Assembly: GCA_951406725.2 (NCBI GenBank)
Contig: OX597825.1
Span: 42,718,001-42,782,000 of the forward strand
Direction of reading: 5' to 3'
Origin: Octopus vulgaris
Lineage: Eukaryota
Length of the DNA: 64,000 nt
Of this stretch, positions 2,212 to 56,412 are shown piece after piece. How positions within the stretch are numbered: the first letter of the stretch is position 1; every line of letters starts with the position of its first letter. The notes below the pieces were generated by a model. The model had not been told where the DNA came from, ran no database searches, and saw only the letters and a program-made list of their open reading frames with translations. The translations under genes and the position numbers were made by a program.

Positions 2212-3156
2212 AAACATTTTTAAAATGAGCATCATAGAAGTGTATCATTTTATAAATGTTGTTTTCTTATGGATTTATTTGTCATACATTGTGAAACCAG
2301 GTGATAGAGTGGTAAAGATGCTGGTCTCTCAGCTAAATATTAGAATGTATATATCACTGCAGGCATACCATATTTTCAAGTGTATATATAAATCTTGCTA
2401 CATCTTAACTGAATTGGCTATGATTCTGTCTTTTGAATAAGAAAGGTGAGATATAGTAGGTAATTAAGTAAACATAACTCTATAAGAACTATACATGATT
2501 GATATTCAACTTCAGTTTTACTGCATCTTGCAAAATGCATAATGTATAATTGATTTTTGCCATTAATTAGATATAAAACAATCAACAGGCATAACCAATC
2601 ATTAATCTATCAGCAATCTGAAGACTATACACTACTCATGAAAACTTTCCAGCCAAAAGTATTTTGACTGTTTGAGCATAAACATCAGCAGTCTCACATT
2701 AATCTGTATGATATTGTTGAATTTAGGACCTTTAGGTTCTCATGCTGGTAGCCACGTGTTTATGTTTCTTGAGATATGAGTATGATTTCTATACTCTTCT
2801 ATTTTTGTGGGGACAAAGTACATAAGTATTATACTGATGTATTTTTCTATTCAAATTGATTTGTGATGTGTTGTATAGTATTTTGCTAAGGACCCTTGTT
2901 TTAAAATCATGGTGATCTTACAAGAAAGAATTGTACTTGCACAGCCAATATAACAGCTGAAATTCTGAGGTTGATTTGTTTGACTAAAACCCCTCATGGC
3001 AGTGCGCAGGCCTGGCTGCAGCCAAATGACTGAAACAAGACTGTATATATATATATAAACATTTTTAAAATGAGCATCATAGAAGTGTATCATTTTATAA
3101 ATTTTGCTTTCTTATGGATTTATTTGTCATACATTGTGAAACCAGGTGACAGAGTG
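2212..3156 (+). repeat. ~100-bp local direct duplication (2212-2310 copied at 3057-3156)
   Basis: aaacatttttaaaatgagcatcatagaagtgtatc...gtgaaaccaggtga(t/c)agagtg occurs twice with a few substitutions; the second copy abuts the HHR element at 3155. Confidence 0.85.
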
Positions 3157-3820
3157 TCTTGCCTGCCTATGTTCTGGTGTTCGCTGAATTTTCTCTGGAG
3201 AACATTCTTTCTTTGTAGTTAGATCGTATGTGATCTACTTCTAGCATATGGCTGTCCACATAGTGGTTTTTTAGCCCTAAATATACACATGTATTGGAAT
3301 TTTCTCTGAATTTTCAGATTTTTATATGCTAGGCTACTGGTTTTAAATTGATATTAATTAAATTAATATTCAATTTATCTCCCTCATTATTTAAATGTTA
3401 AAATAATTATGTTTTCTAATAGGCAGCATTAACTGCAGTAAATTATTTACTGCAGAATTGTTTCTGGAATTTAGTGTGCCAGAACTCAGACATTTGAAAC
3501 TAACCCCAAGGTAATCTGTAGAACTAAGCACGTGTCTGGTCTTATACAGTAAACTAGTGGTTAGTTTTACAAATTATATTGTTTTTGGAACGATCGTGCT
3601 GATGAATCTACGGACGAAGGATTACGTAAGTAATTTATTTGGTAATAGACAAAACCGGTATATGATTAATTCTTGATTTTTGTATAATTTTCATCTGTCT
3701 TGCCCGCCTATGTTCTGGTGTTCGCTGAATTTTCTCTGGAGAACATTCTTTCTTTGTAGTTAGATTGTATGTAATCTACTTCTAGCATATGGCTGTCCAC
3801 ATAGTGGTTTTTTAGCCCTA
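3155..3820 (+). mobile_element. Non-coding HHR-bearing retroelement (Penelope pLTR/retrozyme-like), ~1.2 monomers of 541 bp
   Basis: Direct terminal repeat 3155-3279 = 3696-3820 (period 541); internal HHR; alignable by eye to 29572-30118; ends in TA-rich repeat. Confidence 0.75.
3593..3666 (+). ncRNA. Type I hammerhead ribozyme motif, degenerate (GAAA>AAAA)
   Basis: Stem I atcgtg/tatgat, CTGATGA, stem II (a)tcta/taga(c), aAAA, palindromic stem III accggt, cleavage triplet GTA. Confidence 0.7.
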
Positions 3821-5134
3821 CATATATACATGTATATATATATATATATATGTACACTCATAAAAATATGTATATACATAAATGTGTTTGAGTGTGTGTG
3901 TGTGTGTGTGTATAAATGCAATCCAGGGATATAAGAGTGGGAAGTAGTGAGTGGCAGGTGTAGAGAACAAAAAGTGAACTGTATATGATAAAAAATAAAA
4001 AATTTTTGTCATCAAGAATTTCACACTTTTTCTCATGTCAAAGTTGCAAGGAAATTCAATAATCTGATAGTTTCTATATAGCTTACAGTTAGCAACAAGA
4101 ACTGCTAAAAATGCGAATAAAAATCCAAATTGAGGGAGTGGAACAGTTAAAATGCCTGCAGCATAGCTCTCTTTGCTATTAGCTGGCTGAAGATCATGAT
4201 GTTATTGTTATACAATGCGCTATGCTTAATGTAGCTAATCATCAGGCTGAGATTATGTTAATGAAATGAAGGTGACATTGATGCCCAGAATTTTAAAGTC
4301 AGCCATACCATAGTGGTGAGTTTAACTGAATAGAAAAGCCAGCAGGAAAAAAATAAAAAAGAAACAAGAAGTAGATTAAGAGAAACAATGAGCAATAAAG
4401 CAAAGGGTAAGACTGAAATGGTGTGATTTATAGTAGCATACAAGACACCAGTACACTGATGTAAACTCTGTCATCTCTTGAATGGAAGTTTATGACTACA
4501 ATACTTTCCCCTTGATAGCAATCCTCTTTTTTCTTACCTCTTTCCTTCTTTTTATCCTTTTCTTCCAACTCCTCAACTCTAAGTCACACCCACTCTTGCA
4601 TAGTGCTCAATGGTTCTCCTAACCTACTTCTTGATTTTTGTTTTTTCTTTATTTTTTACCAATGGATTTTCTATTCAGTTGAACTCAGCACTAAGATGTG
4701 ACTGACAGAAATTCCAAGCAACAATGTAATATTCACTTCATTAAGGCAGTCTCAGCCTGATTAGCTACATTGAGCATAGCCCATTGCATAGCAATTACAT
4801 TACAAGCTACTAACATATGTTGCATGCATTTTACCTGCCCTTTCCCTCATTTTGGATTTATATATATATACAAAAAACATCTGTGAAGTGATTATTTTTT
4901 TAATAAAAAATCACGACAATGTAGTCTTAGTCAAAACAAATTGCTTGTCTTTAGGCTTTTCAACTACACAAGTGGTTTACGTATGTTATATTGATAAAGG
5001 TCTTACTATAGAGCTGTTTCTATTGCATGATCCAAGATTCAAATTTTACTCTGCTTACATGCAGACCACATGTGTATAATTCAGAAATATGTAAGCATAT
5101 ATGTATATTTATATTGCATATAAATTTGTGTGTG

Positions 5135-6114: not shown

Positions 6115-6730
6115 CATCATCCTCATCATCATCTTTTAACGTCTGTTGCCCATGCTGGCATGGGTTGGACAGTTTGACCAGGGCTGGTAAGCTGAAGGGC
6201 TGCACCAGACTCCAGTTTGATTTGGCATGGTTTCTATGGCTGGATGCTCTTCCTAATGCCCACCACTCTGAGAGTGTAATGAGTGCTTTTACATGCCACC
6301 AGCACGGGTGCTAGTTGCATGACACCAGTATCCACCACGACTATAATTTCACTTGATGTGATGGGTCCTCTTCTCAAGCAAGGCGTATTGCATAAGATCT
6401 TGGTCATTTGTCATTGCTTCTGTGAGGTCCAGTGCTTGAAAGGTGCTTTTTACATGCCGCTGGCACCAGCCACATTACCGCAATGAGGTCCGGCGCTCAA
6501 CAGGTGCTTTTTATATGCCACCAGCATAGCTACCAAGTATGAAACACCAGCATCAGCCACACCACATCGTCTCCGTGAGTCACAATGCTCAAAAGGTGCT
6601 TTTTATGTGCCACCAGCATGAATGCCAATTATGTGAGACTGGCATTGGCCACAACTACGATTTCATTTAGCTTGATGGGCTTTCTCAAGCACAGCATATT
6701 GCCAGAGGTCTGTGAGGCTCAATGTTCGAA
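6115..6730 (-). mobile_element. 3' UTR/tail fragment of RTE-associated repeat with (GAT)n tail
   Basis: Repeated ggtgcttttta(c/t)(a/g)tgcca units match 22290-22680 and, on the opposite strand, 56220-56410 (3' part of RTE copies); (cat)n tract at 6115-6133. Confidence 0.6.
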
Positions 6731-6847: not shown

Positions 6848-9800
6848 TCTATAAATCTGAAATGCGAAAAGTTTGTTTGTCTGGTTTTGGAATTGAAAGC
6901 TCATTCTTTTAATAAAAAAAGGCCAGGTTTTTGGGCCTGTTAACTGCCACATGTATACTGTTGAGTGGCAGAAAAGAGGGTTGCCACACGCGCACATTTT
7001 GCTTTGGTTGGTCAACAAAATAGACCCAACAGTTCTTGATGATCTCATTGCAGCAGAAATTCCGGACCCAACTGTTGACCGTCAGCTGTACGACATTGTG
7101 AAGGCACACATGGTTCACGGTCCGTGCGGTCCTGGTTTTCAAAAGTTCTCCTCATGCCACAAAGACCACGTGTGCACTAAACGGTACCCAAAGAGGTTCG
7201 TGGACGAGACCCAGACCGGCCGCGACGGATACCCACTGTACAGAAGAAGGCACCCTGACAATGGTGGATTCACTATAACGTTACGGGGTCATCAAGTGGA
7301 TAATAGGTGGGTAGTGCCGTACTGTCCATTTCTGATGAAAACTTTTAACGCTCACATAAATGTGGAGTTCTGTCATTCAGTCAAGTCTATAAAGTATATA
7401 TGTAAATATGTTAACAAGGGTTCTGACGCTGCCATGTTTGGCCTTCAAAAGGACAATAGCATGGACGAGGTGTCACAGTACATGGCAGGTCGGTACATAA
7501 GCAGTGGTGAAGCTTTTTGGCGGATATTCGGGTTTCCACTTCACCAAAGGCACCCCGCCATCATACAACTAGCGGTTCATTTGGAAAATGGCCAACGAAC
7601 TTACTTTACTGAACAGACTGCAGCTGATTTGGCGGCAAATCCAAAACAAACAACTTTGACCGGTTTCTTTAGGCTTTGCCAACTTGACACATTTGCTAAA
7701 ACACTTTTATACCCTCAGGTCCCGTCCTACTACGTGTGGTCAAACAACAATTGGGTGCGTAGGAAGTCGGGTCAGGATGTTGAAGGACATCCTGGTGTCA
7801 AGTTTAACAGTTGTTTAGGAAGAGTCTACACTGTACCTCCAAACCAACATGACTGTTTTCACCTGCGCCTTCTCCTCCATGAGGTTTTAGGCCCACAAAG
7901 TTTTCAAGACATCAGAACTGTTGATGGTGTATTATGTGATACTTTCCGTGAAGCATGTTTTCGGCGTCGACTTTTGTAGGATGATTCACAATGGGGCGCC
8001 ACTATGGCAGAAGGTGTTTCATTAAAATCTCCTAAAAAAATCAGATCGCTTTTCGCTATTCTATTACTATGGTGTGACTTGGCTAATCCCGCCTCTTTAT
8101 GGCTTACCTACAAAGATGATATGTCTGAAGATTTCCTGCGTCACGCTCAATCGCTACATCCATCAATGGAGGTCGGGTACACTGACCTCATTTACAACAG
8201 GGCGCTGCTTGAAATCGAAGATACTGTACTCGATATGGGCGGTAGTGCCTTGCCGGTCTATGGCCTACCTTCAACAAACCGGGAAGGCACAAACACTCTG
8301 TCTTCACATTTGCTGCGTGAGACATGTTTTAATGTTGACGAGCTTGCCGAGTACATAGCCGACAATGAGCCAAAGCTCATTCCAGAACAGAAGTTCGCTT
8401 ACAACTCCGTTGTTAATTCAGTCCGGGCCAAAGCTGGGGACATTTTTTCCTGGACGCTCCTGGGAGCACTGGGAAAACTTTGGCAACAAATTAATATTGG
8501 CTGAGATTAGGCGAACACAAGGCATTGCCCTAGCTGTGGCATCATCTGGAATTGCGGCTACTTTGTTGTCAGGCGGCAGGACAGCTCACTCCACTTTCAA
8601 ACTCCCACTTGACTTAGCGAAGACTGAGACACCAACTTGCAACATCAGTAACAGCTCCGATCAGGCAGAAGTCTTCAGACGATGCAAGCTTATCGTTTGG
8701 GATGAATGCACGATGGCCCACAGAGGTGCTCTTGAGGCACTAGATAGATCTCTCAGAGACATCAAACACTCTTCAGCTCCCATGGGAGGCATAACACTTC
8801 TTCTTTCAGGGGACTTCCGACAAACACTTCCCGTTATTCCCAAAGGGACTAGAGCTGATGCAGTAAGTGCGTGTCTTAAGTCATCCACATTGTGGCCACT
8901 GGTGAAGACTCTCAAACTTCACACCAATATGCGTGCTCATATGCGACGTGATATCACATCAGCAGCATTTTCTCACACCCTCCTTGCACTTGGCGAAGGC
9001 AAAATACCAGGGGATGAAAATGGTAATATTGCCATCAATTCCATTTGTACCATTGTTAACACGCCTTCTGATCTCAGAGATGCAGTCTTCCCAGATCTAC
9101 AAGCTAATTATCAGAATATGGATTGGATTGGCCAAAGGGCTATTCTGGCCCCGAGGAATAAAACTGTTCACCATATTAATGATGAAATGCTAAAACGCAT
9201 TCCTGGGGATGTCTATGTATATAAGTCTATTGATACAACTCCTGACCCAGACGACGTCATCAATTATCCAATAGAGGTACTCAATTCCTTTGAGCCCCCG
9301 GACTACCACCACACATTCTCAAACTTAAAGTTGGTGCCCCTATAATGCTCATTAGAAATTTGGTTATCCCAAAACAATGTAATGGCACACGTTTGATCGT
9401 TAAGTCCTTATCTCCCAATCTGATTGAGGCCACCATTATCACAGGGTGCGGTCGGTCGAGGCAACGTTGTGCTCATACCTAGGATGCTTCTTTTCCCATC
9501 AGGAGCAGACCTACCTTTCATATTTCGGAGGTCCCAGTTCCCAGTAAGGCCATGTTTCGCAATGTCAATTAACAAAGCGCAGGGTCAAACACTGTCTGTG
9601 GCAGGAATACATTTGGGAGAGCCATGTTTCTCTCATGGTCAGCTTTATGTTGGCTGCTCGCGTGTCGGCAGCAACAGTGATGCTTTCGCATTCGTTCCAC
9701 AACGAAAAACAAAAAACATTGTGTACAAGGAGGTTCTATAGGATTACTACGTTTCATCATTTTCAAACACGTTAGTATTTCACTTACATACGACTCTTTT

Positions 9801-10580
9801 ATGATGGCATTTACATTTCTAGGCGTTTCATAACATTAATTCACACTTAACCAACACCTGTCCTTCGCACAACTCTATTTCTATCCATTCATCATCAAAC
9901 CACCAGCCTCATCTTCTATATCCAACGTACATGACACATCTACCCGCTACATCTACACTCTCATTGCTAAAGTTTACATAAGCGACAACACGATCGCAAC
10001 ATACACTTTCGAAACTAATCAACAGATCATTTTATACAACAACAAATTTAATCAAAACGCCCATCAATGAAAACATCTCCACCACTGTATTGTGATTCAC
10101 CTAATCAACACCATTACAGTCTTGCCGGTCTGACATATGGTGAGTAGATGCTATTATTCTATATTTTATAAATTACACATATTTACTTACCCATGCTTCA
10201 TTCCTCTCTTGCCTACATATGAAATCCACTCTCTTTTAACACAGCATCAAGTTTTGTAACAGCACATCCGCTGCCGTTCGTGCAAAACGAAGAGACCCTA
10301 TTCACCTGCGAACGTTTTACATCGACTTCCACGAATATCAAATTCTTACAATTATGAGAACAATAACATGGCTCTTTTCAAGGCAACCTCACATTCAATT
10401 CTTACACCATTCTACGACGGGGTAGGAACACCTTTACACGGCTTTCTATACACTTACAAATACATTCATTCGCCGTGAACTTATATCAATATTTGCCTGA
10501 ATAATCATCATAATTCAGTGCAATTATTAACAGTACTTTCAAGCAATTCAGCCCCGAGCAACGCCGGGCAATTCTGCTAG
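6848..10580 (+). mobile_element. Helitron, internally deleted, with both termini
   Basis: A|TCTATAAAT 5' end at 6848; subterminal hairpin cccgagcaacgccggg and CTAG|T at 10577-10581; Rep/Helicase coding inside. Confidence 0.9.
6895..9741 (+). pseudogene. Helitron RepHel (HUH Rep + PIF1-like SF1 helicase), disrupted
   Basis: HUH motif YTVEWQKRGLPHAHIL, KYICKY tyrosine motif, Walker A LDAPGSTGKT, Walker B IVWDE, GDFRQTLPV, FAMSINKAQGQT, HGQLYVGCSRV. In-frame stop at 7977-7979, several frameshifts, Rep motif 1 missing. Confidence 0.92.
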
Positions 10581-18073
<7,493 letters not shown>

Positions 18074-18801: not shown

Positions 18802-19549
18802 TTATATACATATTTCTATTTACATATGCACACACACACACACACACTCACACATACATACACGCACACACATATGCTGTATCTCGATTAATTTATATGA
18901 AGTTAAAATCTGAATGTTGACTTCTAAATTTGTGATTTAGTTATTTCTTCCATTCTTTTATAATTTGCTATTCTTTACTGTTTATGCATGTAAACTTATG
19001 GAAATAAAACATGCCATATTTTCAATTGCCAATTTTCGCAAACTTGCCAAACTAATTCATATTTTTTAGTAAGCCATTAAAATTTAACAATGTTTCTTTT
19101 AGACTTCTTGATATATCTCAAATAATTGTAACTATGGAAACGTGAATGTGCTGACGGTGAAAATTGTTTCCATAAGGATTTCATTATCTTTTCACCTGTC
19201 AGCAGTAAAATTTCTTTTTGATGATGAAGTTATTTGTTACTTGAGAAGAATTTCAGAATTATTGTGTGCTGTATTTTAGGACGCAATAACAATGTTGAAC
19301 TGAATATTTTATGCTATCCTAGTCTCATGAAGAAGCAAAATGTTTAAACTATATATCATGTGATGATTATAGTATCAGACATTTATATTTCTAGGCTGTA
19401 CAATATATTCTACATCACCATAGCTTACCCCATGTTTGTAAACAATAACCACTTCTTTAGGGAAAGCCTGACATTTTTCCCACTTAGTAATTAATTATAT
19501 TATCTCCCGATTACATATGAGTGGTAACACACACACACACGTATATATA

Positions 19550-19697
19550 TTCTTTATTTGTGAATTAAGGCTGCCATTGGTTTCATGTTAAGAAAAGTAG
19601 GAAATATCCTAGTGTCTTAACAATTTTAAAACACTAGAATCTTTTCGTACTTTTCTCAACATGAAACCAATAGTAGCCTTAATTCACAAATAAAGAA
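19550..19697. repeat. Imperfect ~150-bp fold-back palindrome
   Basis: ttctttatttgtgaattaaggct...agccttaattcacaaataaagaa arms. Confidence 0.85.
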
Positions 19698-19919
19698 ATT
19701 ATAGATTCACCAATGTGGTGTTGAGCACTCATTCCATCATTCGACATTTACATATATATATATATATTTATATGTATAGTAGATGAGTTCAGCAAAAATT
19801 TAGATTCAGATGAATACGGTACGTAAGTTGAGGCACCAGAATTTAGTACGGTATTATCCATACAATTTCAAAGTAATGTGATTAAAATCAAAATAAGCAG
19901 CAAGGATATCCAGAGGAAA

Positions 19920-20006
19920 CGCAGTACGATTGTTTCATGCAATTCCATTTAATTGAACAATGCAATCATTACATCAATTTAAAATGTAGAGCAATCCTCA
20001 GCTGCA
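19920..20006 (-). ncRNA. Type I hammerhead ribozyme motif
   Basis: Minus strand: stem I tgcag/ctgcg, CTGAGGA, stem II (t)tgc/gca(t), GAAA, stem III acaatcgt (one change from the palindrome acgatcgt), GTA. Confidence 0.7.
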
Positions 20007-21933
20007 CCAAGACATAGAATTTAATTAAATTAGAACAGATGGACACATTAGTATAATTATACCTAAAACTTCCAAGAAGTTAAGGAGGTAGACAAAGAAC
20101 ATGCTGTCTCCACTCCAGCATAGAAGTTACTAAGTTATCAAGAAGATATATATTGTTACAGACTCTGCCTTTAACTGAGTTTTTATGAGGTCAGTTTTAA
20201 TTTATAGACTAGTTTATCAAATCCTTGTACATCTGAGGCTGAGAGAACAAAGGGCAGTATCTGAATAACCCTAAACTTTAACTGTATACAATATAGCAGC
20301 ATTGTTTAAAGTATTTAACTATAGAACAACATGATAAGACTTCCCCTGTTTCATTATCAATGGCCTGCTAGTGAGTGACCCCCTCAATTGTCAGCTAACA
20401 TCTTCTTTTAAGTTTTCATTTACCAAACCTCATGATATTGCTTCTGATAAATCTTGATTTTTATGACTATACCAACTATGATTTTTGTCTTCTCCCTCCC
20501 CCTCTCTCTCCTTCTCTAAGCTGAGAGATTTCACATTGATAAATAACATTCCGCTTTATGCAGTTTTTCCGAACTTATATACACTTTTACATCTACAATT
20601 GCTTCTTATTGAGTCATTTTTCATATTTCAGTCCCCTTTCTCTGCACCTTTATTTTTGCTGTTCGAATGCATGTTTTGGATGCTACGTGAGTCATTTTTG
20701 TTGATTGCTCCTCATCCCACCTCGTTTCATTTTATGTTTTTGTCTATTCTAGTTTCTGAATTTTCCATTTACTAAGTACTAGCATCTACATTTATGTTCT
20801 GTTTTCTATAGTAATTATCATTCATCCCTCTATTTATTTTCTCCCAATTTACTATATTTTCACCTGTGCTATTCCAGTTTTATTTCATTCAGTTTTTTGT
20901 TATTTAGTTTATGCATATAATATTCTAGGTTATGTAAGGTTGTGTATGCTAATTATACCTTGTGTCTGTTAAATATGTTGTAGTACCTACTTGACCAAAG
21001 AAAATGTCTATTTAATGCAGCAAAGAATTGAAGAAACCCTCCTGAAAAACACCAAATAATCCAGGATAATATCTGAAACAACTACTTGGACAGGCTTGTG
21101 AACATGAGCAAACAAAAAAGATCTATAATATAGAATAATGTTATTATAAATGTATATGAACATAATGGATTGTAATATATTATCTAAAATATAGTTTGAA
21201 CAAAAGAAATGATAGAGTTGAATTGATGAGAGTAATGAAAAGAGGGATTGTCAGTAAATAGAATACAAGAACTGTGAACATATAGTACACCTCTTTAAGA
21301 AAACAGTGCCTAGCGGCACAGCAAGAGGCAGTTAAGCATAGTTAATTACACTGCTCTTAATGTGAACTTTGTCCTCTTTGGCATCTTCGTATATTGTCCT
21401 GAAACTGATAATGTCAAAAGGAACATTTGTTTTTTATCATTTACACGTTTGTCTAATCATTAGGGAAACACATGGGATGAGAAGGGGTTCTGAATCCCTC
21501 AGTCAAATCTAATGTATTCTTTCATGATATTTTCTTTCTTCTTTCTTCCTTTTGGTCCTTTGGGATGACCTACAAGCAACAACCAATGTCATTCTCTTTT
21601 CTTCTCCTTTTCTCATTTGTCCCTATATATCTCTCTTTAATAAGTTGTGATGTTTCACAAGCACCACCCAAAAATCTAATGGAGCTTTCTGATTAGTGTA
21701 AATGGTAAAAGTCTTTGAATGCTAGCAAAAACCCATTAATGTCAAATGCCTGATGAAGCATATGCATGGAATAGTGACACACACAAGATCCATAGATATT
21801 ATAAATAATATTTACTGACATCCTATGGTTATAAGAATATCCTAACAAATGAAGATGTGGTATGCAGAAACATATCACAATACATTAATAAAGTACAAAA
21901 ATTTCTATCAACAAGTCATTTTCATTATTACTA

Positions 21934-25680: not shown

Positions 25681-27475
25681 ACTATATTCTAATAGTAATA
25701 CATATTTGAATACCCACTTAACAACAGCAACACACTGTTACCTTCAGCTGTAATGCCACAAAGCTAACCATGAAGACAGAAACAATAAGCAAAGTATTAG
25801 AACTGATCAGTCAATCAATATGGATAAGGAAAGCACATCTCCATGCTAGGTTTGAGGTAGAATATTCAGAAAGTAATGTTCAATATCTATCACCCTTTCA
25901 AGAAAATCTTTACAGAAAATTAAACCTGTAACTTCAACATATTCAAATAAACTAAATTACTTAGTAGCTACTGTCATTATAAGAGAAACTCAATCCAGAT
26001 CTAGAAGTCCAAAAATATTGAATAAATTGTAAGTTGCAAGTCAAAAGATACAAAGTTCTACTCTAAATGAAAAACAAAATCTTATATTAAAAAGATGAAA
26101 CAAATATTACAAAAGTATTCAAAAAGAGGAAGAAATCCAAGATGTGAAACACAAAAAGCACCAGCAACAAACAACAGTTTCTAGTAAAGACATACCATGA
26201 AAAAATGCAAAGACTGCTTTACAACTTATATTTATTTCAGCTGCATGATTGTTGATAGTCATGAATCATGCAACAGAAATAAATATAACTTCCTTGCTAT
26301 GTCTATACATACTTAGAGGTTCCCTTTTGATTCATAAATAACATAGTAAATTTCTGAGATTATATCAATCATGTTATGTCAAACTGAAAAACTTTAATAA
26401 CACTGCAAGATAAAATGATAATAAAAACAGGCCTTAGTTCTATAAAAGAAGTAATTTCTTAAGTAATATTACACTGCATTTTTTTCTAACAAGACTGTTG
26501 AATCAACTCAACAATGGTTATAGCACACTATAAACTATCTCCTCTATATGGTTGACTTGAAATATATAAAAGACAAGACACTGCTAGAGAATTTATTGAA
26601 CACTATTCATGAATTCAATGCTGGTGGCGAATATTCTGATAGCTAGTCTAAGATGGGGCAAATTAATTAAAACACAAAATATTAGGTTAAACTGTGAAAT
26701 CAAAGAACCCATTATGCAAATTCTTCAGAATAGAGGAAACTGATAAAATATAGCATACATAAATTAAAGAAATATTTACAAAAGAGTCTTTACTCTTTAA
26801 TTGATTTTCTTGGCCTGCTACCATGCTGGAGCACTATCATTAACAATTTTAGTTGATAAAGTAAACAAATATTAAAAACCAAACTAAATGCTGGAAATAT
26901 AATTAAGGATATTCATATGTTAAGTGTACAGGATGATGAAGCTGAAACTTATTCAGAGTATCAAAGCATTTAAGTAACTTAAGTACACATGACAGTCAAT
27001 TCATTTGCAATCCCCAGCTGCCAGTGGACTGGCAGTAAGTGGACTGGAACAATGTGAAATGAAGTGCTTTGTAAAAGCGTCTTCACAATTAAAGATTTAA
27101 ATACATCAGTAAACTAAACATAAATTACTGTACAAATGTAATATATTAAAAGTTAACTGAATAGTTTAAACAGACAAGACATTCCAACAGATGGCATGGT
27201 TGCATTATGTCTACATTGTGGTAGATATTGATACAAATAGTGAATATTATATAAAACAAGTGTTGTGAATCTTTAAAGTACTTAAAATAATTAACTCAAT
27301 AAATGGTCATTGAAAAAAAAACTTTCTCTCTATAAGGTGTATAATAAAAGTGAAGTACTTTTATGTGGAAGAAAATACTTCAAAAACCAAAAGTTTTGTA
27401 CAACCCACATTACAAAAGCAGTGATGCGACAACTACTCTTCCTGCTCAGAGTTGATAAATCTTGTGTATATAGAT

Positions 27476-28226: not shown

Positions 28227-28250
28227 ATATATATATATATATATATATAT

Positions 28251-29200
<950 letters not shown>

Positions 29201-29283
29201 ATTTATATGTATATATATATATTTATATGTATATATATATATTTATATGTATATATATATATTTATATGTATAAATATATATT

Positions 29284-29321
<38 letters not shown>

Positions 29322-29495
29322 TATATATATGTATATATTGGCAGGGCTGGCCTGCTAGGTAGCCGGCCAGAATGCTAGAAATAGATCATAAACGATCAAA
29401 CTACAAGGGAAATTCTCTAGAGGAAGAATTCAGCGAACACCAGAACCAAATTTGGCGGGCAGGACATATGAAAAATTAAATAAAAAACAGACTTA

Positions 29496-29571
29496 AATGC
29501 ATACCTCGGTTTCGGTCTTAACAAAAGAACTACTTGCACAATTCAAGTGTCCGTGACTTCTTCAGTACATT
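29496..29571 (-). ncRNA. Type I hammerhead ribozyme motif (inverted copy)
   Basis: Reverse complement of 29779-29854. Confidence 0.8.
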
Positions 29572-29778
29572 TTTAAATATTTAAATAAATACGTTCCCTA
29601 GCAGTAAGCTTTACCCGCAGTGAATTATTCACTGCAGCCCTTCGCTTCAGGAGTCTCTTAGCGCGCCGGAACCAAGACATTTGAAATTTTATTCCCGATG
29701 TAATCAGTAAGACTAAGCACGTGTCTGTCTTGACACAGAGAGCTGGGGTTAGTCTTGCGGTTTGCATCTCGAGGACCG

Positions 29779-29854
29779 AATGTACTGAAGAAGTCACGGA
29801 CACTTGAATTGTGCAAGTAGTTCTTTTGTTAAGACCGAAACCGAGGTATGCATT
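29779..29854 (+). ncRNA. Type I hammerhead ribozyme motif
   Basis: Stem I aatgta/tgcatt, CTGAAGA, stem II (a)gtc/gac(c), GAAA, stem III acc-ga-ggt, GTA. Confidence 0.8.
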
Positions 29855-30143
29855 TAAGTCTGTTTTTTATTTAATTTTTCATATGTCCTGCCCGCCAAAT
29901 TTGGTTCTGGTGTTCGCTGAATTCTTCCTCTAGAGAATTTCCCTTGTAGTTTGATCGTTTATGATCTATTTCTAGCATTCTGGCCGGCTACCTAGCAGGC
30001 CAGCCCTGCCAATATACACATATATTTGAATTTTCTCTGACTCCTCAGATTTTTTGAATGCTGGACTACTGGTTTTAAATTGATATTAAAATTAATATTA
30101 ATTTATCTCCCTCAATTTTTATATATTTATATATATATATATT

Positions 30144-30180
<37 letters not shown>

Positions 30181-30189
30181 ATTTATATA

Positions 30190-42849: not shown

Positions 42850-43065
42850 TTGTTGTGCAAGATTTTTTTTTTTTTTATGTGAAGTCGTGTGTTGAAACAG
42901 ATATTGTTATATTTCGGAATAGTCATATTGCCAGTTTAGCCAATAAAAACACACGCACTATAAATAAATATCACTGAAGCAAAATACACCAAATATATAG
43001 TGCATGTGTTTTTATTGGCTAAACTGGCAATATGACCATTCCGAAATATAACAATATATATATAT

Positions 43066-43131
<66 letters not shown>

Positions 43132-43378
43132 ATTAGGGCTTAGTAAAATAAATTACTTTGCCACATACTGAACTTAGTAGAAATAGCAGCCAAAAAAAAA
43201 AATTTTCTTAGCATTTCTATTACTTAAAGAAAATTTCATATTGCCAGTTTAGCCAATAAAAACACACGCACTATAAATAAATATCACTGAAGCAAAATAC
43301 ACCAAATATATAGTGCATGTGTTTTTATTGGCTAAACTGGCAATATGACCATTCCGAAATATAACAATATATATATAT

Positions 43379-43440
<62 letters not shown>

Positions 43441-43546
43441 ATTAGGGCTTAGTAAAATAAATTACTTTGCCACATACTGAACTTAGTAGAAATAGCAGCC
43501 AAAAAAAAAAATTTTCTTAGCATTTCTATTACTTAAAAGAAAATTT
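42850..43546. repeat. Fold-back element (arms 42901-42962 / ~42996-43057) with HHR 3' half, plus ~313-bp tandem duplication (42924-43236 / 43237-43546)
   Basis: Arms and duplication read directly; GAAA-cagatattg-TT at 42894-42908 fits HHR stem III plus a cleavage triplet. Confidence 0.7.
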
Positions 43547-43625
43547 CTCTCAGATAATGTTTACTCCAGACAGCCCACGAAGGTTTGGAGGTAAATACAG
43601 AAAATTATCACAAGTACATAGATCG

Positions 43626-43688
43626 TTTGAGTACGTCAACGTTTCAAGATTAGCCAAATAAAATCAGCATTTCTATCGTCAGCTCAAA
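43626..43688 (-). ncRNA. Type I hammerhead ribozyme motif (inverted copy)
   Basis: Reverse complement of 44068-44130. Confidence 0.8.
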
Positions 43689-44067
43689 ATTTCTTAATTT
43701 GGATTTGGAAACACTAAAAGAAGGAACTTTACCTATCAGCGAACTTATCGCTTCAGATGAACCACTCCAACTAAACAGTGTCAACAAATTCAAAATGCGC
43801 AGGCGTAAATTTCTTCAATTAATTAATTAATTTTACCCTCAATTGTTGATATAATTAATTTCTCTCGGTCATACTGCCTCGGTTCTCGCGGTTAAAATAT
43901 AGTGTTTGCTAGATAGACCACGTGGGTGGAAGGAGATTGAAGAAATTTACGCCTGCGCATTTTGAATTTGTTGACACTGTTTAGTTGGAGTGGTTCATCT
44001 GAAGCGATAAGTTCGCTGATAGGTAAAGTTCCTTCTTTTTAGTGTTTCCAAATCCAAATTAAGAAAT

Positions 44068-44130
44068 TTTGAGCTGACGATAGAAATGCTGATTTTATTT
44101 GGCTAATCTTGAAACGTTGACGTACTCAAA
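44068..44130 (+). ncRNA. Type I hammerhead ribozyme motif
   Basis: Stem I tttgag/ctcaaa, CTGACGA, stem II (t)aga/tct(t), GAAA, stem III acgt-tg-acgt, GTA. Confidence 0.82.
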
Positions 44131-44397
44131 CGATCTATGTACTTGTGATAATTTTCTGTATTTACCTCCAAACCTTCGTGGGCTGTCTGGATTAAACATT
44201 ATCTGAGAGAAATTTTCTTTAAGTAGTAGAAATGCTAAGAAAATTCTTTTTTTTTGGGCTGCTATTTCTACTAAGTTTAATTTATTTTACTAAGCCCTAA
44301 TTATATAATGTAAAATTTTGAATTCGCCTTAAATGGTCCTTTTACATACTGAACACTTGGTGAAATTGATTAATTAATTAATTTTACCCTCAATTGT

Positions 44398-46190
<1,793 letters not shown>

Positions 46191-47756: not shown

Positions 47757-47851
47757 TTATATAAATAAGGACAAAATCTTTATTCAAAATACCGATCTTA
47801 TCAGGTGGCCAGCATGGGAATAAAAACCTCAGAGGTAATAATTATTATTAA

Positions 47852-48102
47852 AATTATAATTAAAGGTATCTAAGAGATACCACCATGCTAGAAATAGCAG
47901 CCGAAACTTGACTCTAAAACCACATCAAATGTTCATACAGCACCACAAGAGAAGACAAAGAGATAATTTTTTGCTAGTTTATTTTGTCTCTTTGTCTTCT
48001 TTCCTGGAGCTGTATGAACATTTAATGTGGTTTTAGAGTCAAGTTTCGGCTGTTATTTCTAGCATGGTGGTAACTCTTAGATACCCTACCTTAATTATAA
48101 TT
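47852..48102. repeat. Imperfect ~250-bp fold-back palindrome
   Basis: aattataattaa..ggtatctaagag..ccaccatgctagaaatagcagccgaaacttgactctaaaaccacat and its reverse complement; shares the ggctg(c/t)tatttcta motif with the HHR units. Confidence 0.8.
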
Positions 48103-48164
48103 ATATATGTATATACACATATATACATATATATACATATACATGTATGTATGTATGTATGTAT

Positions 48165-48839: not shown

Positions 48840-49049
48840 TATAGTTATAAGTAGAAAACATAATTAATTATTTTTAAGCCTTATATGATATCCGCACTTT
48901 TCCATAAACTAATTTGCTTGCATCCTCTGTGTCATGGCAACAAAAAATACTGAGGAAGTATGTCCAGTTAGCTTACTGAAACACTTGTATATTATATATG
49001 CTTTTAAAATGGCAATTACGTTTACCCATTTACCTCCTTTTACTATATA

Positions 49050-51425
49050 CTAGCAGAATTGCCCGGCGTTGCTCGGGGCTGAATTGCTTGAAAGTACTGT
49101 TAATGATTGCACTGAATTATGATGATTATTCAGGCAAATATTGATATAAGTTTACGGCGAATGAATGTATATGTAAGTGTATAGAAAGCCGTGTAAAGGG
49201 GTTCCTACCCCCTCGTAGAATGGTGTAAGAATTGTATGCGAGGTTGCCTTGAAAAGAGTCATGTTATTGTTCTCATAATTGTAAGAATTTGATAGCCGTG
49301 GAAGTCGATGTAAAACGTTCGCAGGTGAATAGGGTCTCTTCGTTTTCCACGAACGGCAGCGGATGTGCTGTTACAAAACTTGATGCTGTGTTAAAAGAGA
49401 GTGGGTTTCATATGTAGGCAAGAGGGGAATGAAGCATGGGTAAGTAAATATGGGTAAATTATAAAATATAGAACAATAGCATCTACTCACCATATGTCAG
49501 ACCGGCAAGACTGTAGTGGTGCTGATTAGATGAATCACAACACATTGGTGGAGATGTTTTCATTGATGGGCGTTATGATTAAATTTGTTGTTGTATAAAA
49601 TGATCTGTTGCTTAGTTTCCAAAGTGTATGTTGCGATCGTGTTGTCGCTTATGTAAACTTTAACAGTGAGAGTGTAGATGTAGGTGGTAGATGTGTCATG
49701 TACGTTGGATATAGAAGATGGGGCTGGTGGCTTGATGATGAATGGATAGAAATAGAGTTGAGCGAAGGACAGGTGTTGGTTAAGTGTGAATTAATGTCAT
49801 GAAACGCCTAAAAATGTAAATGCCATCATAAAAGAGAGTCGTATGTAAGTGAAATACTAACGTGTTCAAAAATGATGAAACGTAGTAATCCTATAAAACC
49901 TCCTTGTTCACAATGTTTTTTGTTTTTCGTTGTGGAACGAATGCGAAAGCATCACTGTTGCTGCCGACACGCGAGCAGCCAGCATAAAGCTGACCATGAG
50001 AGGAACATGGCTCTCCCAAATGTATTCCCGCCACAGACAGTGTTTGACCCTGCGCTTTGTTAATTGACATTGCGAAACATGGCCTTACTGGGAACTGGGA
50101 CCTCCGAAATATGAAAGGTAGGACTGGTCCTGATGGGAAAAGATGCATCCTAGGTATGAGCACAACGTTGCCTCGACCGCACCCTGTGATAATGGTGGCC
50201 TCAATCAGATTGGGAGATAAGGACTTAACGATCAAACGTGTGCCATTGCATTGTTTTGGGGGAACCAAATTTCTAATGAGCATTATAGGGGCACCAACTT
50301 TAAGTTTGAGAATGTGTGATGGTAGTCCGGGGTGCTCGGGAACACTGCATCTCTGAGATCAGAAGGCGTTTTAACAATGGTACAAATGGAATCGATGGCA
50401 ATATTACCATTTTCATCCCCTGGTATTTTGCCTTCGCCAAGTGCAAGGAGGGTGTGAGAAAATGCTGCTGATGTGATATCACGTCGCATATGAGCAAGCA
50501 TATTGGTGTGAAGTTTGAGAGTCTTCACCAGTGGCCACAATGTGGATGACTTAAGACACGCACTTACTGCATCAGCTCTCGTCCCTTTGGGAATAACGGG
50601 AAGTGTTTGTCGGAAGTCCCCTGAAAGAAGAAGTGTTATGCCTCCCATGGGAGCTGAAGAGTGTTTGATGTCTCTGAGAGATCTATCTAGTGCCTCAAGA
50701 GCACGTCTGTGGGCCATCGTGCATTCATCCCAAACGATAAGCTTGCATCGTCTGAAGACTTCTGCCTGATCGGAGCTGTTACTGCTGTTGCAAGTTGGTG
50801 TCTCAGTCTTCGCTAAGTCAAGCGGAAGCTTGAAAGTGGAGTGAGCTGTCCTGCCGCCTGGCAACAAAGTAGCCGCAATTCTAGATGATGCCACAGCTAG
50901 GGCAATGCTTTGTGTTCGCCTAATCTCAGCCAATATTAATTTGTTGACAAAAGTTTTCCCAGTGCCCCTAGGAGCGTCCAGGAAAAAAATCTTCCCAAAG
51001 GCATTTTAAGAAAAATGCTTCCGTAAAGACGGTGAAAATATTGTCAATGTCCCCAAACAGGGACACAATTCAATTTTTAAACAATAACCTCCGAAAGGGG
51101 GAGGGTTACCGTTTACAATTATTTAACAAATGCAACACAACAACGTTTCCCTGGCGAGGAACCAACAAACGTGATTACAATAGTCAAACAGTAATAATAA
51201 TAACAACAAACCTTTTTAATTTATCCCCATTTATGTGAAACCACTTATTCAAGTTCAAGTCATTGATGCAATTTTATACGAATTGTTAACACACACACAT
51301 AATAAGGTTGAAAAATTGAATATTAATTTGATTAATATGAATTGAAAACCAGTGGCGTAGCATATAAGACCATAGCGGATCTTCCTCTAGCAAAAACGAT
51401 GACCACTATTAATGGCTCATCTCTG

Positions 51426-53324: not shown

Positions 53325-56300
53325 GAAAACTACTCCATCACTGTTACCCTCCCAGAAGATTTTATACCTATGTGCCTTACCTGTGAGGACCCTGGCTGAA
53401 GCTCTTCTTCCTCTTACCTCTTGTATGCAACTTACATCAACACGTCTCCGTTCAAGCATCTCTACAATCTCCCTAGACCTACTTTTCGGTGTGCCTACAT
53501 TCACAGTGCCATCTCTAAAAACTGGAAAAGGAATGTGGGGAGGCATGGGATGGGAGATGTTATTCAATGTCTGAAAAGAAGAAGGTTTTCGTGTTCTTTT
53601 GGGTTGTTAAGGTCATAGAGGTAGTGATGCATGCTACCTATTAATCTGCAACACTAACTTCAGGAAGCCAGACAGCCACCTGATAACCTATCAATCAGGT
53701 GACTCTGCTAGCCAGATTGATTTCATCCTCACCAGACGGCGGGATGCAAGGTTGCTTTTAAATACAAAGACCCTCCACGGTGAAGAATGTACCCCCAGCA
53801 TAGACTAGTCATTAATGACTTTAGACTCGACGCCAGAAAGATGCAAAGAAGCAAACCAATCTAGAAAAAAGGATTTGGAAGTTAAAGAACCCTTCACATG
53901 GTTAGAGATTTAGTGGGAAATTTGATGAGAGAAAGGAGAAGCTACAGACTTCGGACATAGTGGGTAAGTGGAAATACCTACGGGACAGCTTACTGAGTAC
54001 AACAGACCAAATCTGCGACTGGTGCAAAGTCCCTACCATACCTAGAGTAACGTGGTGGTGGAATAATACGGTAGACAAGGTCATTAGTGCAAAGAAACAG
54101 GCCTGGAAGAGCCGGGGTATCAAGGAACCGTACCAGATAGCCAGAAGGAAGGCTGGGCGACAGGTATACATAACCAAGGGAGAAGGAGAAAAGAAGTTTG
54201 TCAGTGCTCAGCGACGTGAGGACCAAACTCCTGAAGTACTTCGGATTGCAAGACAGTGTGTGAGAGAAAATTGTGATGTCACAGGAGTGAAATGTGTCGC
54301 ATGGACGATGGTACACTTACTTTTAGTGATTCTGAAAAGAAAAAGGCTTGGAGAAGCCATTATGAAAGGCTGCTGAATGTGGAGAATGTGGATAATGAAT
54401 GGGAGTAGGAGAGCCTGCCAGTACAAGGACCAGATATCCGAATAAACAGCACCTTGGTAGATAAAGTAATTAAGAGTATGAAGCTAGGAAAAGCCCCGTG
54501 CCCATCAGAAATCACTGCTGAGATGCTTAAAATATCTGCTGATGTGGGTTATGGTCTAGTCACCCGTATTGTAAACCAGGTAGTTCACGGAGTCATACGC
54601 AATGGTTGACGTAGCAGCACCATAGTCGACTGCTACAAGGGTAAAGGTGATGCTTTAGATAGAAATAACTACGGGGGTATCAAACTGGTGGATCAGGTGA
54701 TGAAGGTTACAGAGAGGGTCATATTCCAACTAATTAGAGAGAGAGAGTCCGCTTAGATGAGATGCAGTTCGGTTTTGTACCAGGTAGAAGCACCATTGAT
54801 TGTATATTCCCGGTACGGCAACTGCAGGAGAAATACCTAGCCAAAGATAAACCCCTAGCTTTTGTTGACTTGGAGAAAGCCTTTGACAGAGTCCCCCCCG
54901 ATCCCTTATCTGGTGGGCGATGCGGAAACTGGGGATTAATGAGTGGTTAATAAGAGTTTTACAGGCTCCGTACAGGGATGCCATTTGTAAGGTAAGCGTT
55001 GGCAATGAGTATAATGAAGAACTCCGGGTAGAAGTAGGGGCTCACCAAGGTTCTACCCTCAGCCCACTCTTATTCATCATAGTCCTCCAGGCAATTAGAG
55101 AGGAATTCAAGACAGGTTGACCCTGGGAGCTCCTCTATGCTGGTGACCTTGCTCTCATAGCGGAATCACTACCAAAACTAGAGAATAAATTTCAGGTGTG
55201 GAAGAAAGGTTTAGAATCGAAGGGCCTTAGAGTCAATGTTGCAAAAACCAAAGTCCTAGTAAGTAGGTAGGCGAACATATCACAAACCCTTTCAGGTAGA
55301 TGGCCCTGCTCGATTTGTAGAAAAGGCGTAGGTAGAAAGTCCATAAGATGTACCCAGTGTAAGCTATGGACGCGTAAGTGGTACCGCAACATCAAAGGAA
55401 GATTAACCATGAAGATAGCTTTTGTGTGCGGCAGATGTGCGGGGTCAATAAACACCACAGATGCTCAGAAAACTGATTCCATCACATGCCAGGGGAAGAA
55501 ACTAGAAGTAGTTGATAGCTTCCGCTACTTAGGTAACCAAGTCTGTAGTAGGGGTGGATACTCGGAGAGCGTTGCCACTAGAATAAGAATGGCCTGGACA
55601 AAGTTCAGAAAGCTCCTACCTCTACTGGTGACAAAGGCCCTCTCGCTGAGTGAAAGGTAGATTGTATGATGCGTGGGTGCGAACTGCCTTACTACACAGC
55701 AGTGAAACATGAGCCATGACTGCTGAAGACATGCGTAGGCTGTGAAGAAATGAAGTTAGTATGATCCGCTGGATGTGTAATGTCAGTGTGCACACATGAC
55801 AGAGTGTAAGCGCCCTGAGAGAAATGTTGGACATAAGAAGCATCGAATGTGGTGTGCAAGAGAGACCACTGCACTGGTATGGTCATGTGCTAAGGATGGA
55901 TGGGGAGAGCTGTGTGAAGAAGTGTCACTCCCTAACAGTGGAAAGAACTCATGGAAGAGGGAGATCCAGGAAGACATGGGATGGGGTGGTGAAGCAATGG
56001 TGAAAGGCTGAGACCTCTGGAGATATGCTGTGATTGAGATGACCCGGCAAGTAAAGTGAGATCGCAGCCTTAGCCTACGGTAATGCCGCATAACTAGTTC
56101 ATTTAAAAAGTACCTTTGAATCGTCGGGTGACATGCCGTGCTTGATGAGACCTATTGAGTAAATTAAAAGATCAAAATCAAATCAAATTACAATCAAATG
56201 AAAATTGTAATTGTGGCCGATGCCAGTGCCACCTGACTGGCTCCCGTGCTGGTGGCACGCAATAAGCACCATTCATGCGTGGGTCGTTGCCATGGCTGCC

Positions 56301-56412
56301 TGACTGGGTCTCCGTGTCAGTGGTACGTAAAAAGCACCATTCGAACGTGGTCGATGCCGGTGCCGCCTAACTGGCTCCCATGCCAGTGGCACGTAAACAG
56401 CACCCACTACAC
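53325..56412 (+). mobile_element. RTE-clade LINE, near full-length, decayed, with inverted 5' segment (53325-53620)
   Basis: Minus-strand APE N-terminus (TVNVGT..IQEVR..DGV); plus-strand APE C-terminus (ICNTNFRK, QIDFIL), QFGFVPGRST, FVDLEKAFDRV, HQGSTLSPLLF, LLYAGDL and a Cys-rich finger; 3' UTR repeats. Confidence 0.88.

What the first reader, a model, noticed from the sequence alone, without database searches (positions are those of the whole stretch)
29334..30118. Circularly permuted monomer relative to the 3155-3820 copy, suggesting a circular or tandem RNA template
Seen: 3155-3820 reads block A (tgtcttgcc...ctccctca), then block B (tttaaatg...HHR), then partial A. The plus strand 29572-30118 reads B then A, and it ends (ctccctcaatt) where the other copy runs on into B. 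It is one full unit with a different start point, plus an inverted arm ending at the 5' edge of HHR stem I. Inference: reverse transcription around a circular RNA or across a tandem multimer, as in the retrozyme model.
Basis: partly seen in the sequence, partly recalled or inferred. Interest (0 to 1): 0.7.

Follow-up and report, generated by a model that had tools for sequence, protein, structure and literature searches.

The report
Penelope-type hammerhead retroelement, two fixed ends
Two differently phased copies of a 0.55-kb non-coding repeat with a hammerhead-ribozyme motif share fixed end points with related repeats nearby, likely because a Penelope-type reverse transcriptase starts copying at two set sites on a longer-than-unit RNA that is probably linear, though a circular RNA is not excluded.

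Summary
Copy 1 (3155-3835) is A-B-A' with a 541-bp period. Copy 2's plus strand (29569-30121) is one 546-bp unit plus 7 nt, and 29334-29571 is a perfect inverted arm. The phase is not free: copies stop at two shared 3' sites about 100 nt apart (End1, End2), beside (TA)n or (TG)n. Three more elements in the window have the same two-end, inverted-arm layout; two of them carry their own type I hammerhead. Partial tandem, inverted 5'-truncated copy, one-sided tail and microsatellite target are the published Penelope-like (PLE) insertion pattern, and two internal RT start sites are shown in vitro for one PLE. So this is likely a non-autonomous PLE (solo non-LTR retrozyme), likely in an octopod. Circle versus linear RNA stays open. 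All four long copies are 1.01-1.26 units, which fits a circle. But a neighbour's arm ends exactly at the ribozyme cut, and two long copies stop 7 and 35 nt short of it, which fits linear cut RNA. Known kind; interest lies in junctions that make the PLE ribozyme's role testable.

The parts
29569..30121 (+). Copy 2 main body: one 546-nt unit (B, hammerhead, A, tail) plus 7-nt terminal overlap; 3' end = End2
29334..29571 (-). Copy 2 inverted arm, identical to 29779-30016; 3' end (sense) = End1, outer edge uncertain to 29325; 5' end 70 nt upstream of the cut
29569..29571 (.). 3-nt microhomology shared by arm and main body at the inversion junction
29778..29855 (+). Type I hammerhead motif, intact core, 7-bp stem I, A-C apposition then 3-bp stem II base, 3-bp stem III with 2-nt loop; predicted cut after 29848
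29495..29572 (-). Second copy of the hammerhead, inside the inverted arm
30010..30025 (+). End1 site (AT/AC-rich motif after CCCT); weak predicted hairpin, not better than shuffles
30026..30121 (+). Tail between End1 and End2 (96-105 nt), with a 13-bp AU hairpin at 30076-30105 (z -3.85)
29097..29333 (.). (TA)n-rich array, left flank of copy 2 and right flank of family 2
30122..30189 (.). (TA)n-rich array, right flank of copy 2
3155..3835 (+). Copy 1: 5'-truncated A plus tail (3155-3392), B, hammerhead, A' ending at End1 (3820-3835); 1.23-1.26 units; 5' end 35 nt downstream of where the upstream cut would be
3592..3667 (+). Copy 1 hammerhead; stems covary with copy 2; A at position G12 (3651), so likely inactive; palindromic stem III region; predicted cut after 3660
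3057..3156 (+). 100-bp copy of 2212-2311 (97%) between a (TA)n run and the 5' end of copy 1; 2-nt overlap with the element
51298..51367 (-). Copy 3: tail fragment ending at End2 (3392 equivalent), next to (TG)n
28247..29098 (+). Family 2 (control): 492-nt unit; arm 28247-28484(-) runs from End2 to exactly the hammerhead cut; main body 28482-29098 starts 7 nt after the cut and ends at End1; hammerhead 28868-28974, cut after 28966; tail 106 nt
43433..44404 (+). Family 3 (control): 551-nt unit; arm 43433-43819(-) ends at End1 and starts 188 nt upstream of the cut; main body 43818-44404 is one unit plus 36 nt and ends at End2; hammerheads 44068-44130(+) and 43688-43626(-); tail 95 nt
47760..48106 (.). 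Two inverted arms without body, one ending at End1 and one running about 85-90 nt further to End2; no hammerhead found

Best explanation
This is a 541-546-bp non-coding repeat with a type I hammerhead motif and two shared 3' ends, likely a non-autonomous Penelope-like element (PLE) copied in trans by a PLE reverse transcriptase-endonuclease that likely primes on both nicked strands of a (TA)n target, at two set sites of a probably linear, longer-than-unit RNA. Shown: the unit, its tandem junction in copy 1, the two ends about 100 nt apart, the microsatellite flanks, the perfect inverted arm, the 3-nt microhomology, and the same layout in three more elements. Inferred steps: (1) a head-to-tail donor elsewhere is transcribed through the junction, and its short-stem-III hammerheads cut only part of the time. 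(2) The protein binds the End1-End2 tail region. (3) In copy 2 one target strand primed at End2 and was extended through A, the uncut hammerhead and B, stopping at the tail of the upstream unit (a second bound protein, the tail hairpin, or a transcription start there). (4) The other strand primed at End1 and gave the 238-nt arm. (5) The two cDNA ends joined by microhomology. Copy 1 was primed at End1 and ran almost to an RNA 5' end made by the upstream hammerhead cut. The apparent circular permutation is then End1 versus End2 priming plus different 5' stops. I put about 0.88 on the PLE two-site priming part and about 0.52 on the whole statement including a continuous linear template.
For: Shared ends: copy 1 and the arm lose identity at the same register (30016 maps to 3285); copy 2 main body and copy 3 end at 3392-3393. 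End1 and End2 fall in the same alignment columns across families 1, 2, 3 and the 47.8-kb element. CC(C/T)T lies in the last 22 nt of 10 of 11 ends against 7 of 46 other (TA)n edges (motif chosen after seeing the ends, ends not independent). Hammerhead descriptor: 7 hits against a mean of 0.05 in 40 shuffles; between copies 1 and 2 all 7 stem I pairs hold, with 2 two-sided and 3 one-sided changes, and 3 of 3 stem II pairs change on both sides. Linear cut RNA: the family 2 arm ends exactly on the first base after the cut (28484 pairs with 28967; chance 0.002, or 0.006 over three arms). Both End1-primed long copies stop 7 and 35 nt short of the upstream cut (chance 0.001-0.004, window chosen after the fact). 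0 of 4 long copies hold two same-strand hammerheads. Literature: partial tandems, inverted 5'-truncated copy, one-sided tail and microsatellite bias (PMC8557442, passages); both strands cleaved and extended, two internal RT starts bounding the tail, uncut RNA the main substrate (PMC11167929, main text); opposite-strand hammerhead pairs 100-700 bp apart near PLEs (PMC4209133). No Pfam match in 13 of 13 element frames tested.
Against: All 4 long copies are 1.01, 1.07, 1.23-1.26 and 1.25 units (arithmetic coordinates), which one lap of a circle with poor strand displacement explains in one step; the linear model needs two different stop causes. Two of the three A/A' differences in copy 1 are C/T at CpG and family 2's repeats are identical over 125 nt, so both repeats may have been copied from one template segment, as on a circle. 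No donor with two hammerheads and no autonomous PLE was found in the window. The tail is 95-106 nt against the published 30-40. Rfam finds no hammerhead, the copy 2 hammerhead fold lies 4.1 kcal/mol above the minimum-energy fold, stem II lacks the usual G-C base pair, and cleavage is untested. PMC11167929 found no RNA-seq reads ending at its element's cut site. Sample: five insertions in one window.
Confidence: 0.52

Rival explanations
1. Same PLE machinery and same two start sites, but the long copies were made on a hammerhead-cut, religated monomer circle (the retrozyme model). The RT makes one lap and stalls soon after meeting its own cDNA; arms that stop at the cut come from coexisting linear monomers.
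For: 4 of 4 long copies are just over one unit (1.01-1.26). Both End2-primed main bodies stop 7 and 36 nt past one lap (chance 0.001-0.005). Every crossing of the cut site is seamless, with arm and main body identical there. The exact stop at the family 2 cut suggests the ribozyme does cut, which would make intact sites more likely to be religated. Circles are shown for coral, mussel and axolotl retrozymes (PMC7229834, passages and Discussion) and were proposed for PLEs (PMC4209133).
Against: It does not explain why the End1-primed long copies both stop just before the cut on the second pass while End2-primed ones overshoot by only 7-36 nt. No copy in the window has the two hammerheads needed to release a monomer. 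Short stem III suggests dimer-dependent, partial cleavage. Uncut RNA is the main substrate in vitro for the one PLE tested.
Confidence: 0.27
2. Only unit-length linear RNAs are used. Transcription starts in the upstream tail, giving a 7-36-nt terminal redundancy. Copies primed at End2 are simply full-length. Copies primed at End1 switch, by that redundancy, onto the End2 of a hammerhead-cut 3' fragment and rebuild the upstream repeat up to the cut.
For: Explains all five 5' ends with two RNA species: unit plus 7 and plus 36 nt for End2 copies, and stops at or near the cut for End1 copies and the family 2 arm. Needs no two-hammerhead donor. Transcription starts in the pseudo-LTR in Penelope and Chlamys-3 (PMC8557442, passage).
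Against: No transcription start was mapped. The overlaps differ (7 versus 36 nt) and the 7-nt one is A/T-only. Such a strand transfer was not described for PLEs in the texts I read. Two cases per class.
Confidence: 0.12
3. The copies are DNA-level fragments of a longer tandem array, and the arm is a later fold-back or replication template-switch duplication, with no RNA step setting the ends.
For: (TA)n-flanked DNA is unstable here: a 309-bp tandem duplication overlaps family 3 and a 100-bp local copy sits at copy 1's 5' end.
Against: Ends recur at two homologous sites in four unrelated or diverged sequences, and one arm ends exactly at a predicted RNA cut site. DNA rearrangement would not respect these positions.
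Confidence: 0.06
4. The perfect inverted arm is an assembly or library fold-back artefact next to long (TA)n runs.
For: 238 of 238 identity; microsatellite flanks; PMC8557442 notes such structures trouble assemblies.
Against: The arm ends at End1, a site used independently by copy 1. Arms in families 2 and 3 and at 47.8 kb differ from their partners by substitutions and indels, as expected of real aged DNA.
Confidence: 0.03

Closest known systems
Endonuclease-positive Penelope-like elements (Penelope/Poseidon, Neptune, Nematis, Hydra) and their non-autonomous derivatives
   Same: Partial tandem forming a pseudo-LTR, inverted 5'-truncated copy, tail at one end only, type I hammerhead in the repeat, AT-rich or microsatellite targets, two RT start sites bounding the tail (PMC8557442 passages; PMC11167929 main text).
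   Different: No RT or GIY-YIG frame; unit only 0.49-0.55 kb; tail 95-106 nt instead of 30-40; hammerheads keep a short stem III and have long stem II inserts; the autonomous partner was not identified.
Metazoan non-LTR retrozymes (coral, mussel, axolotl, Xenopus)
   Same: Non-coding, GC under 45%, type I hammerhead with weak or palindromic stem III, head-to-tail junction, proposed PLE mobilisation (PMC7229834; bioRxiv 10.64898/2026.07.22.740005).
   Different: Copies here are dispersed 1.0-1.26-mers with one hammerhead per strand, not dimers or multimers; unit longer than the typical 150-300 nt though inside the 51-972 range of the preprint; inverted arms and two fixed ends were not described for retrozymes in the parts I read; circular RNA untested.
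L1 twin-priming inversions (recalled, no call)
   Same: Inverted 5' segment joined to the main body by 2-3-nt microhomology, explained by priming on both target strands.
   Different: Here the arm duplicates sequence also present in the main body, and both primings use fixed sites rather than a poly(A) end and a chance internal site.
Naiad PLEs
   Same: (TA)n targets, tandem and inverted insertions, present in cephalopods (PMC8557442 passages).
   Different: Naiads lack canonical hammerheads and are described as old remnants in cephalopods, so they are unlikely drivers of a copy with a 238-of-238 arm.

Membership tests
Non-autonomous PLE derivative | Partial tandem forming a pseudo-LTR | tested here: met
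   Copy 1 A-B-A', period 541; family 2 period 492
Non-autonomous PLE derivative | Inverted 5'-truncated copy next to the 5' end | tested here: met
   Copy 2, families 2 and 3, 47.8-kb element
Non-autonomous PLE derivative | Tail present at one end only, between two fixed 3' ends | tested here: met
   End1/End2 in four elements
Non-autonomous PLE derivative | Tail length in the published 30-40-bp range | tested here: inconclusive
   95-106 nt here; the published figure is given as 'often', for other clades, so not treated as defining
Non-autonomous PLE derivative | Type I hammerhead in the terminal repeat | tested here: met
   Rfam models do not detect it
Non-autonomous PLE derivative | Insertion into AT-rich or microsatellite DNA | tested here: met
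   All listed 3' ends abut (TA)n or (TG)n
Non-autonomous PLE derivative | Terminal sequence shared with an autonomous PLE of the same genome | not testable with these tools
   No eukaryotic genome or Repbase collection on hand; no PLE frame recognised among 10 other window frames scanned
Autonomous EN+ PLE | ORF with telomerase-like RT and GIY-YIG endonuclease | tested here: not met
   Longest stop-free frame inside copy 2 is 97 aa; 0 of 13 element frames match Pfam
Active non-LTR retrozyme | Two or more consecutive units each with a complete hammerhead | tested here: not met
   0 of 4 long copies in the window; arrays elsewhere in the genome could not be checked
Active non-LTR retrozyme | Non-coding, GC below 45%, type I hammerhead | tested here: met
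   GC 0.32 and 0.39
Active non-LTR retrozyme | Self-cleavage as monomer or dimer | not testable with these tools
   Indirect only: family 2 arm ends at the predicted cut; copy 1 has A at G12
Active non-LTR retrozyme | Accumulation of monomer circular RNA | not testable with these tools
   No RNA data

The most novel reading that the evidence does not exclude
These short cephalopod elements record the PLE transposition cycle in their junctions: the hammerhead cuts in vivo and sets where cDNA ends, so it fixes the 5' border of the rebuilt pseudo-LTR, and one-lap copies such as 29569-30121 are direct footprints of reverse transcription round a ribozyme-made RNA circle (or of a retrovirus-like strand transfer), with both target strands primed at two conserved sites 100 nt apart. 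Thousands of such junctions would settle what the PLE hammerhead is for.
Probability: 0.3. Interest if true: 0.68.

Novelty: new member of a known kind. Interest (0 to 1): 0.42.

Why it matters
The role of the hammerhead in endonuclease-positive PLEs is called unclear (PMC8557442, passage), the one in vitro study found cleavage dispensable and no reads ending at the cut (PMC11167929), and circular templates for PLE-driven insertion are proposed rather than shown in the texts I read. Units of 0.5 kb are short enough that RT often copies more than one unit, so every insertion reports where copying started and stopped relative to the cut. With at least four hammerhead families in 64 kb, a whole-genome end map would test circle, linear multimer and strand transfer directly. 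The element itself is of a known kind.

Tried and rejected
Rfam: 0 hits at gathering score in 64,000 bases; none of the 18 and 14 weak hits over the two copies is a hammerhead, so the ribozyme call rests on my descriptor, written after seeing the first motifs (it allows a mismatch at the base of stem II and A at G12), and on covariation. A second, differently bounded descriptor recovered only 3 of the 7 hits and no new one. tRNA origin: ARAGORN 0 genes. ORF remnants: 13 of the 56 frames listed for the four elements were scanned, 0 matched Pfam. Prokaryotic relatives: a 20-nt motif hit 20 loci, all Nostoc-type cyanobacteria, with at most 28-30 nt of similarity, rejected as chance. AC-loop hairpin at End1, by analogy with the anole element: predicted but no better than shuffles (z 0.4 and 0.5), so not counted. 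Folding units as circles gave z -3.4 to -4.6 against 30 shuffles, but local hairpins would give this for linear RNA too, so not counted for a circle. 'Arm ends at stem I edge' as a rule: rejected, 1 of 3 arms. Target-site duplications could not be defined inside the microsatellites. A profile search of the window for more tails did not run; two motif searches stood in. Viral and metagenome contig collections stayed unchecked.

Full report
1. Setting. The window is AT-rich animal DNA with long (TA)n arrays, Helitron and LINE remnants. The best named hits of its LINE frame are from the octopod Argonauta hians (56-59% identity, next named hit 41%), so the host is likely an octopod. This is an inference from one repeat protein.

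2. The observation. Copy 1 has a 140-nt direct repeat, 3155-3294 and 3696-3835, period 541. Copy 2's plus strand matches copy 1 as B then A (E 6e-42 and 5e-49; 77% and 85% identity). Its start (29569-29575) maps to 3386-3393 and its end (30115-30121) to 3387-3393. It is one 546-nt unit plus a 7-nt overlap. The arm 29334-29571 is the exact reverse complement of 29779-30016 and shares 3 nt with the start of the main body. A read-through transcript is predicted to fold into a duplex of about 238 bp that buries the hammerhead. The description is confirmed.

3. The hammerhead. Rfam does not detect it. A type I descriptor found 7 motifs in the window against a mean of 0.05 (maximum 1) in 40 shuffles: three in family 1, one at 28868-28974, two at 43626-43688 and 44068-44130, one at 19918-20008. 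The descriptor was written after seeing the first motifs. Between copies 1 and 2, all 7 stem I pairs hold with 2 two-sided and 3 one-sided changes, and 3 of 3 stem II pairs change on both sides. Against activity: stem II starts with an A-C apposition rather than the usual G-C, stem III is 3 bp, the hammerhead fold lies 3.8-4.1 kcal/mol above the minimum-energy fold, and copy 1 has A at G12, the general base (established knowledge). Of five hammerhead regions folded, only family 2's beats shuffles (z -3.5). Short, palindromic stem III is the dimer-dependent type described for animal hammerheads (PMC4209133, parts 1-2 of 4 read).

4. The phase is not free. Copy 1 and the arm both end at one site, End1, 168-177 nt after the cut: the arm loses identity at 30016, which maps to 3285, and copy 1's A' departs at 3280-3286 equivalents. 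The edge is uncertain by about 10 nt because the motif resembles the target. Copy 2's main body and the fragment at 51298-51367 both end at End2, 3392-3393 equivalent. The 96-105 nt between the sites hold a strong AU hairpin (z -3.2 and -3.9; -3.1 in family 3).

5. Internal controls. Family 2 (28247-29098): unit 492; the main body ends at End1, the arm at End2, 106 nt further. The arm's 5' end is exactly the first base after the predicted cut (28484 pairs with 28967), and the main body starts 7 nt after the cut, joined by a 3-nt microhomology. Family 3 (43433-44404): unit 551; arm at End1, main body one unit plus 36 nt ending at End2, tail 95 nt. At 47760-48106 two arms without a body end at End1 and End2. 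Family 3's 3' part is related to family 1 (z 4.5 and 7.9, 0 of 200 shuffles); family 2 versus family 1 did not pass z 3, but End1 and End2 fall in common columns when the tails are aligned. CC(C/T)T lies in the last 22 nt of 10 of 11 ends, against 7 of 46 other (TA)n edges and 300 of 2042 windows inside the units. The motif was chosen after seeing the ends, several ends are homologous, and the miss is the old element at 19770.

6. Comparison with print. PMC8557442 (passages) describes PLE insertions as partial tandems, often with an inverted 5'-truncated copy, a 30-40-bp tail at one end and microsatellite bias, calls the hammerhead's function unclear, and says cephalopod Naiads are old remnants without canonical hammerheads. 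PMC11167929 (parts 1-2 of 4) shows a PLE protein cleaving and extending both strands of AT-rich DNA, starting at two internal RNA sites that bound the tail, with uncut RNA the main substrate and no RNA-seq reads ending at the cut. PMC4209133 reports opposite-strand hammerhead pairs 100-700 bp apart and proposes circles as templates for more-than-unit copies. PMC7229834 (passages and Discussion) and PMC7761336 (passages) show or review circular RNA from tandem animal retrozymes. The preprint 10.64898/2026.07.22.740005 (parts 1-3 of 5) ties retrozymes to PLE pseudo-LTRs, defines active ones by two hammerhead-bearing units, and found cleavage in 1 of 9 dimers tested. No supplement was seen (paper reading closed).

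7. Mechanism. Most likely a PLE protein acts in trans, nicks (TA)n on both strands and primes at End2 on one side and End1 on the other; the cDNAs join by microhomology. The template must continue across the unit junction and the cut site. Every crossing is seamless, and arm and body agree there, which favours covalently continuous RNA over sloppy end-to-end jumps. For linear RNA: the exact stop at the family 2 cut (chance 0.002-0.006), both End1-primed long copies stopping 7 and 35 nt short of the upstream cut (0.001-0.004), and 0 of 4 long copies crossing the cut twice. For a circle: 4 of 4 long copies are 1.01-1.26 units, both End2-primed bodies stop 7 and 36 nt past one lap (0.001-0.005), and the repeated segments look identical at birth (family 2, 125 of 125; copy 1, 3 differences in 125 nt, two at CpG, similar to the 3 in 100 of the flanking duplication). 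These probabilities assume uniform 5' ends and use windows chosen after the fact. A third model, unit-length RNA with a short terminal redundancy and strand transfer onto a cut fragment, fits all five 5' ends but lacks any mapped start site. I give 0.52, 0.27 and 0.12, with 0.06 for DNA-level rearrangement and 0.03 for an artefact.

8. Membership and verdict. It is not an autonomous PLE (no ORF) and, within the window, not an active retrozyme (no two-hammerhead array). It meets every testable structural feature of a non-autonomous PLE derivative, with a longer tail; homology to a driver could not be tested. Nine searches listed no paper on such cephalopod families, but Repbase and subscription papers were out of reach. 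Interest 0.42, mainly because the junctions make an open question about PLE hammerheads testable at genome scale.

Noticed in passing
28247-29098: Second hammerhead family directly beside copy 2, sharing the (TA)n array; its inverted arm ends exactly at the predicted cut. The most informative junction in the window.
   Followed up: yes
43433-44404: Third hammerhead family, one unit plus 36 nt with inverted arm. Arm and body are near-identical over the inner 240 nt but differ at several sites and by a 15-nt indel in the outer 150 nt, which may mean two template variants or later conversion.
   Followed up: partly
19918-20008 (-): Fourth hammerhead motif, ending in (TA)n about 155 nt after the cut, without the CC(C/T)T end motif; no partner copy found.
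   Followed up: partly
47760-48106: Two inverted arms, End1 and End2, with no body and no hammerhead.
   Followed up: partly
4117-4397 and 4601-4863: Old inverted pair (72%) next to copy 1; both arms carry the family 1 End2-like motif (one search hits at 4128 and 4843); no hammerhead found.
   Followed up: partly
3057-3156 and 2212-2311: 100-bp local sequence copied to the 5' junction of copy 1, inside the (TA)n target; looks like a templated insertion made during integration.
   Followed up: partly
19544-19703, 42901-43057, 26223-26291: Further imperfect palindromes, two of them at (TA)n arrays; relation to the hammerhead families not shown.
   Followed up: no
42923-43547: 309-bp tandem duplication that copies the outer end of the family 3 arm and part of the 42.9-kb palindrome.
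   Followed up: partly
3529-3534, 29718-29723, 43919-43924: CACGTG occurs in block B of both family 1 copies and of family 3, not family 2; possible internal promoter element, untested.
   Followed up: no
29334-30016: Any read-through transcript is predicted to form a 238-bp perfect duplex, a likely substrate for small-RNA silencing or A-to-I editing (recalled as extensive in cephalopods).
   Followed up: no
6897-10586 and 49044-50988: Helitron (Rep and PIF1 helicase domains) and a 96-97% identical partial inverted copy.
   Followed up: partly
12690-15287: LINE with endonuclease and RT frames between two very long (TA)n arrays; best named hits from Argonauta hians.
   Followed up: partly
20380-20389 and 57661-57670: Single hits to the End2 motif and to the shared upstream motif outside the known elements; may be chance or old fragments.
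   Followed up: no
56213-56404: 67-bp tandem unit also matching near 6592 and 22524; resembles an octopus SINE recalled from memory, not checked.
   Followed up: no
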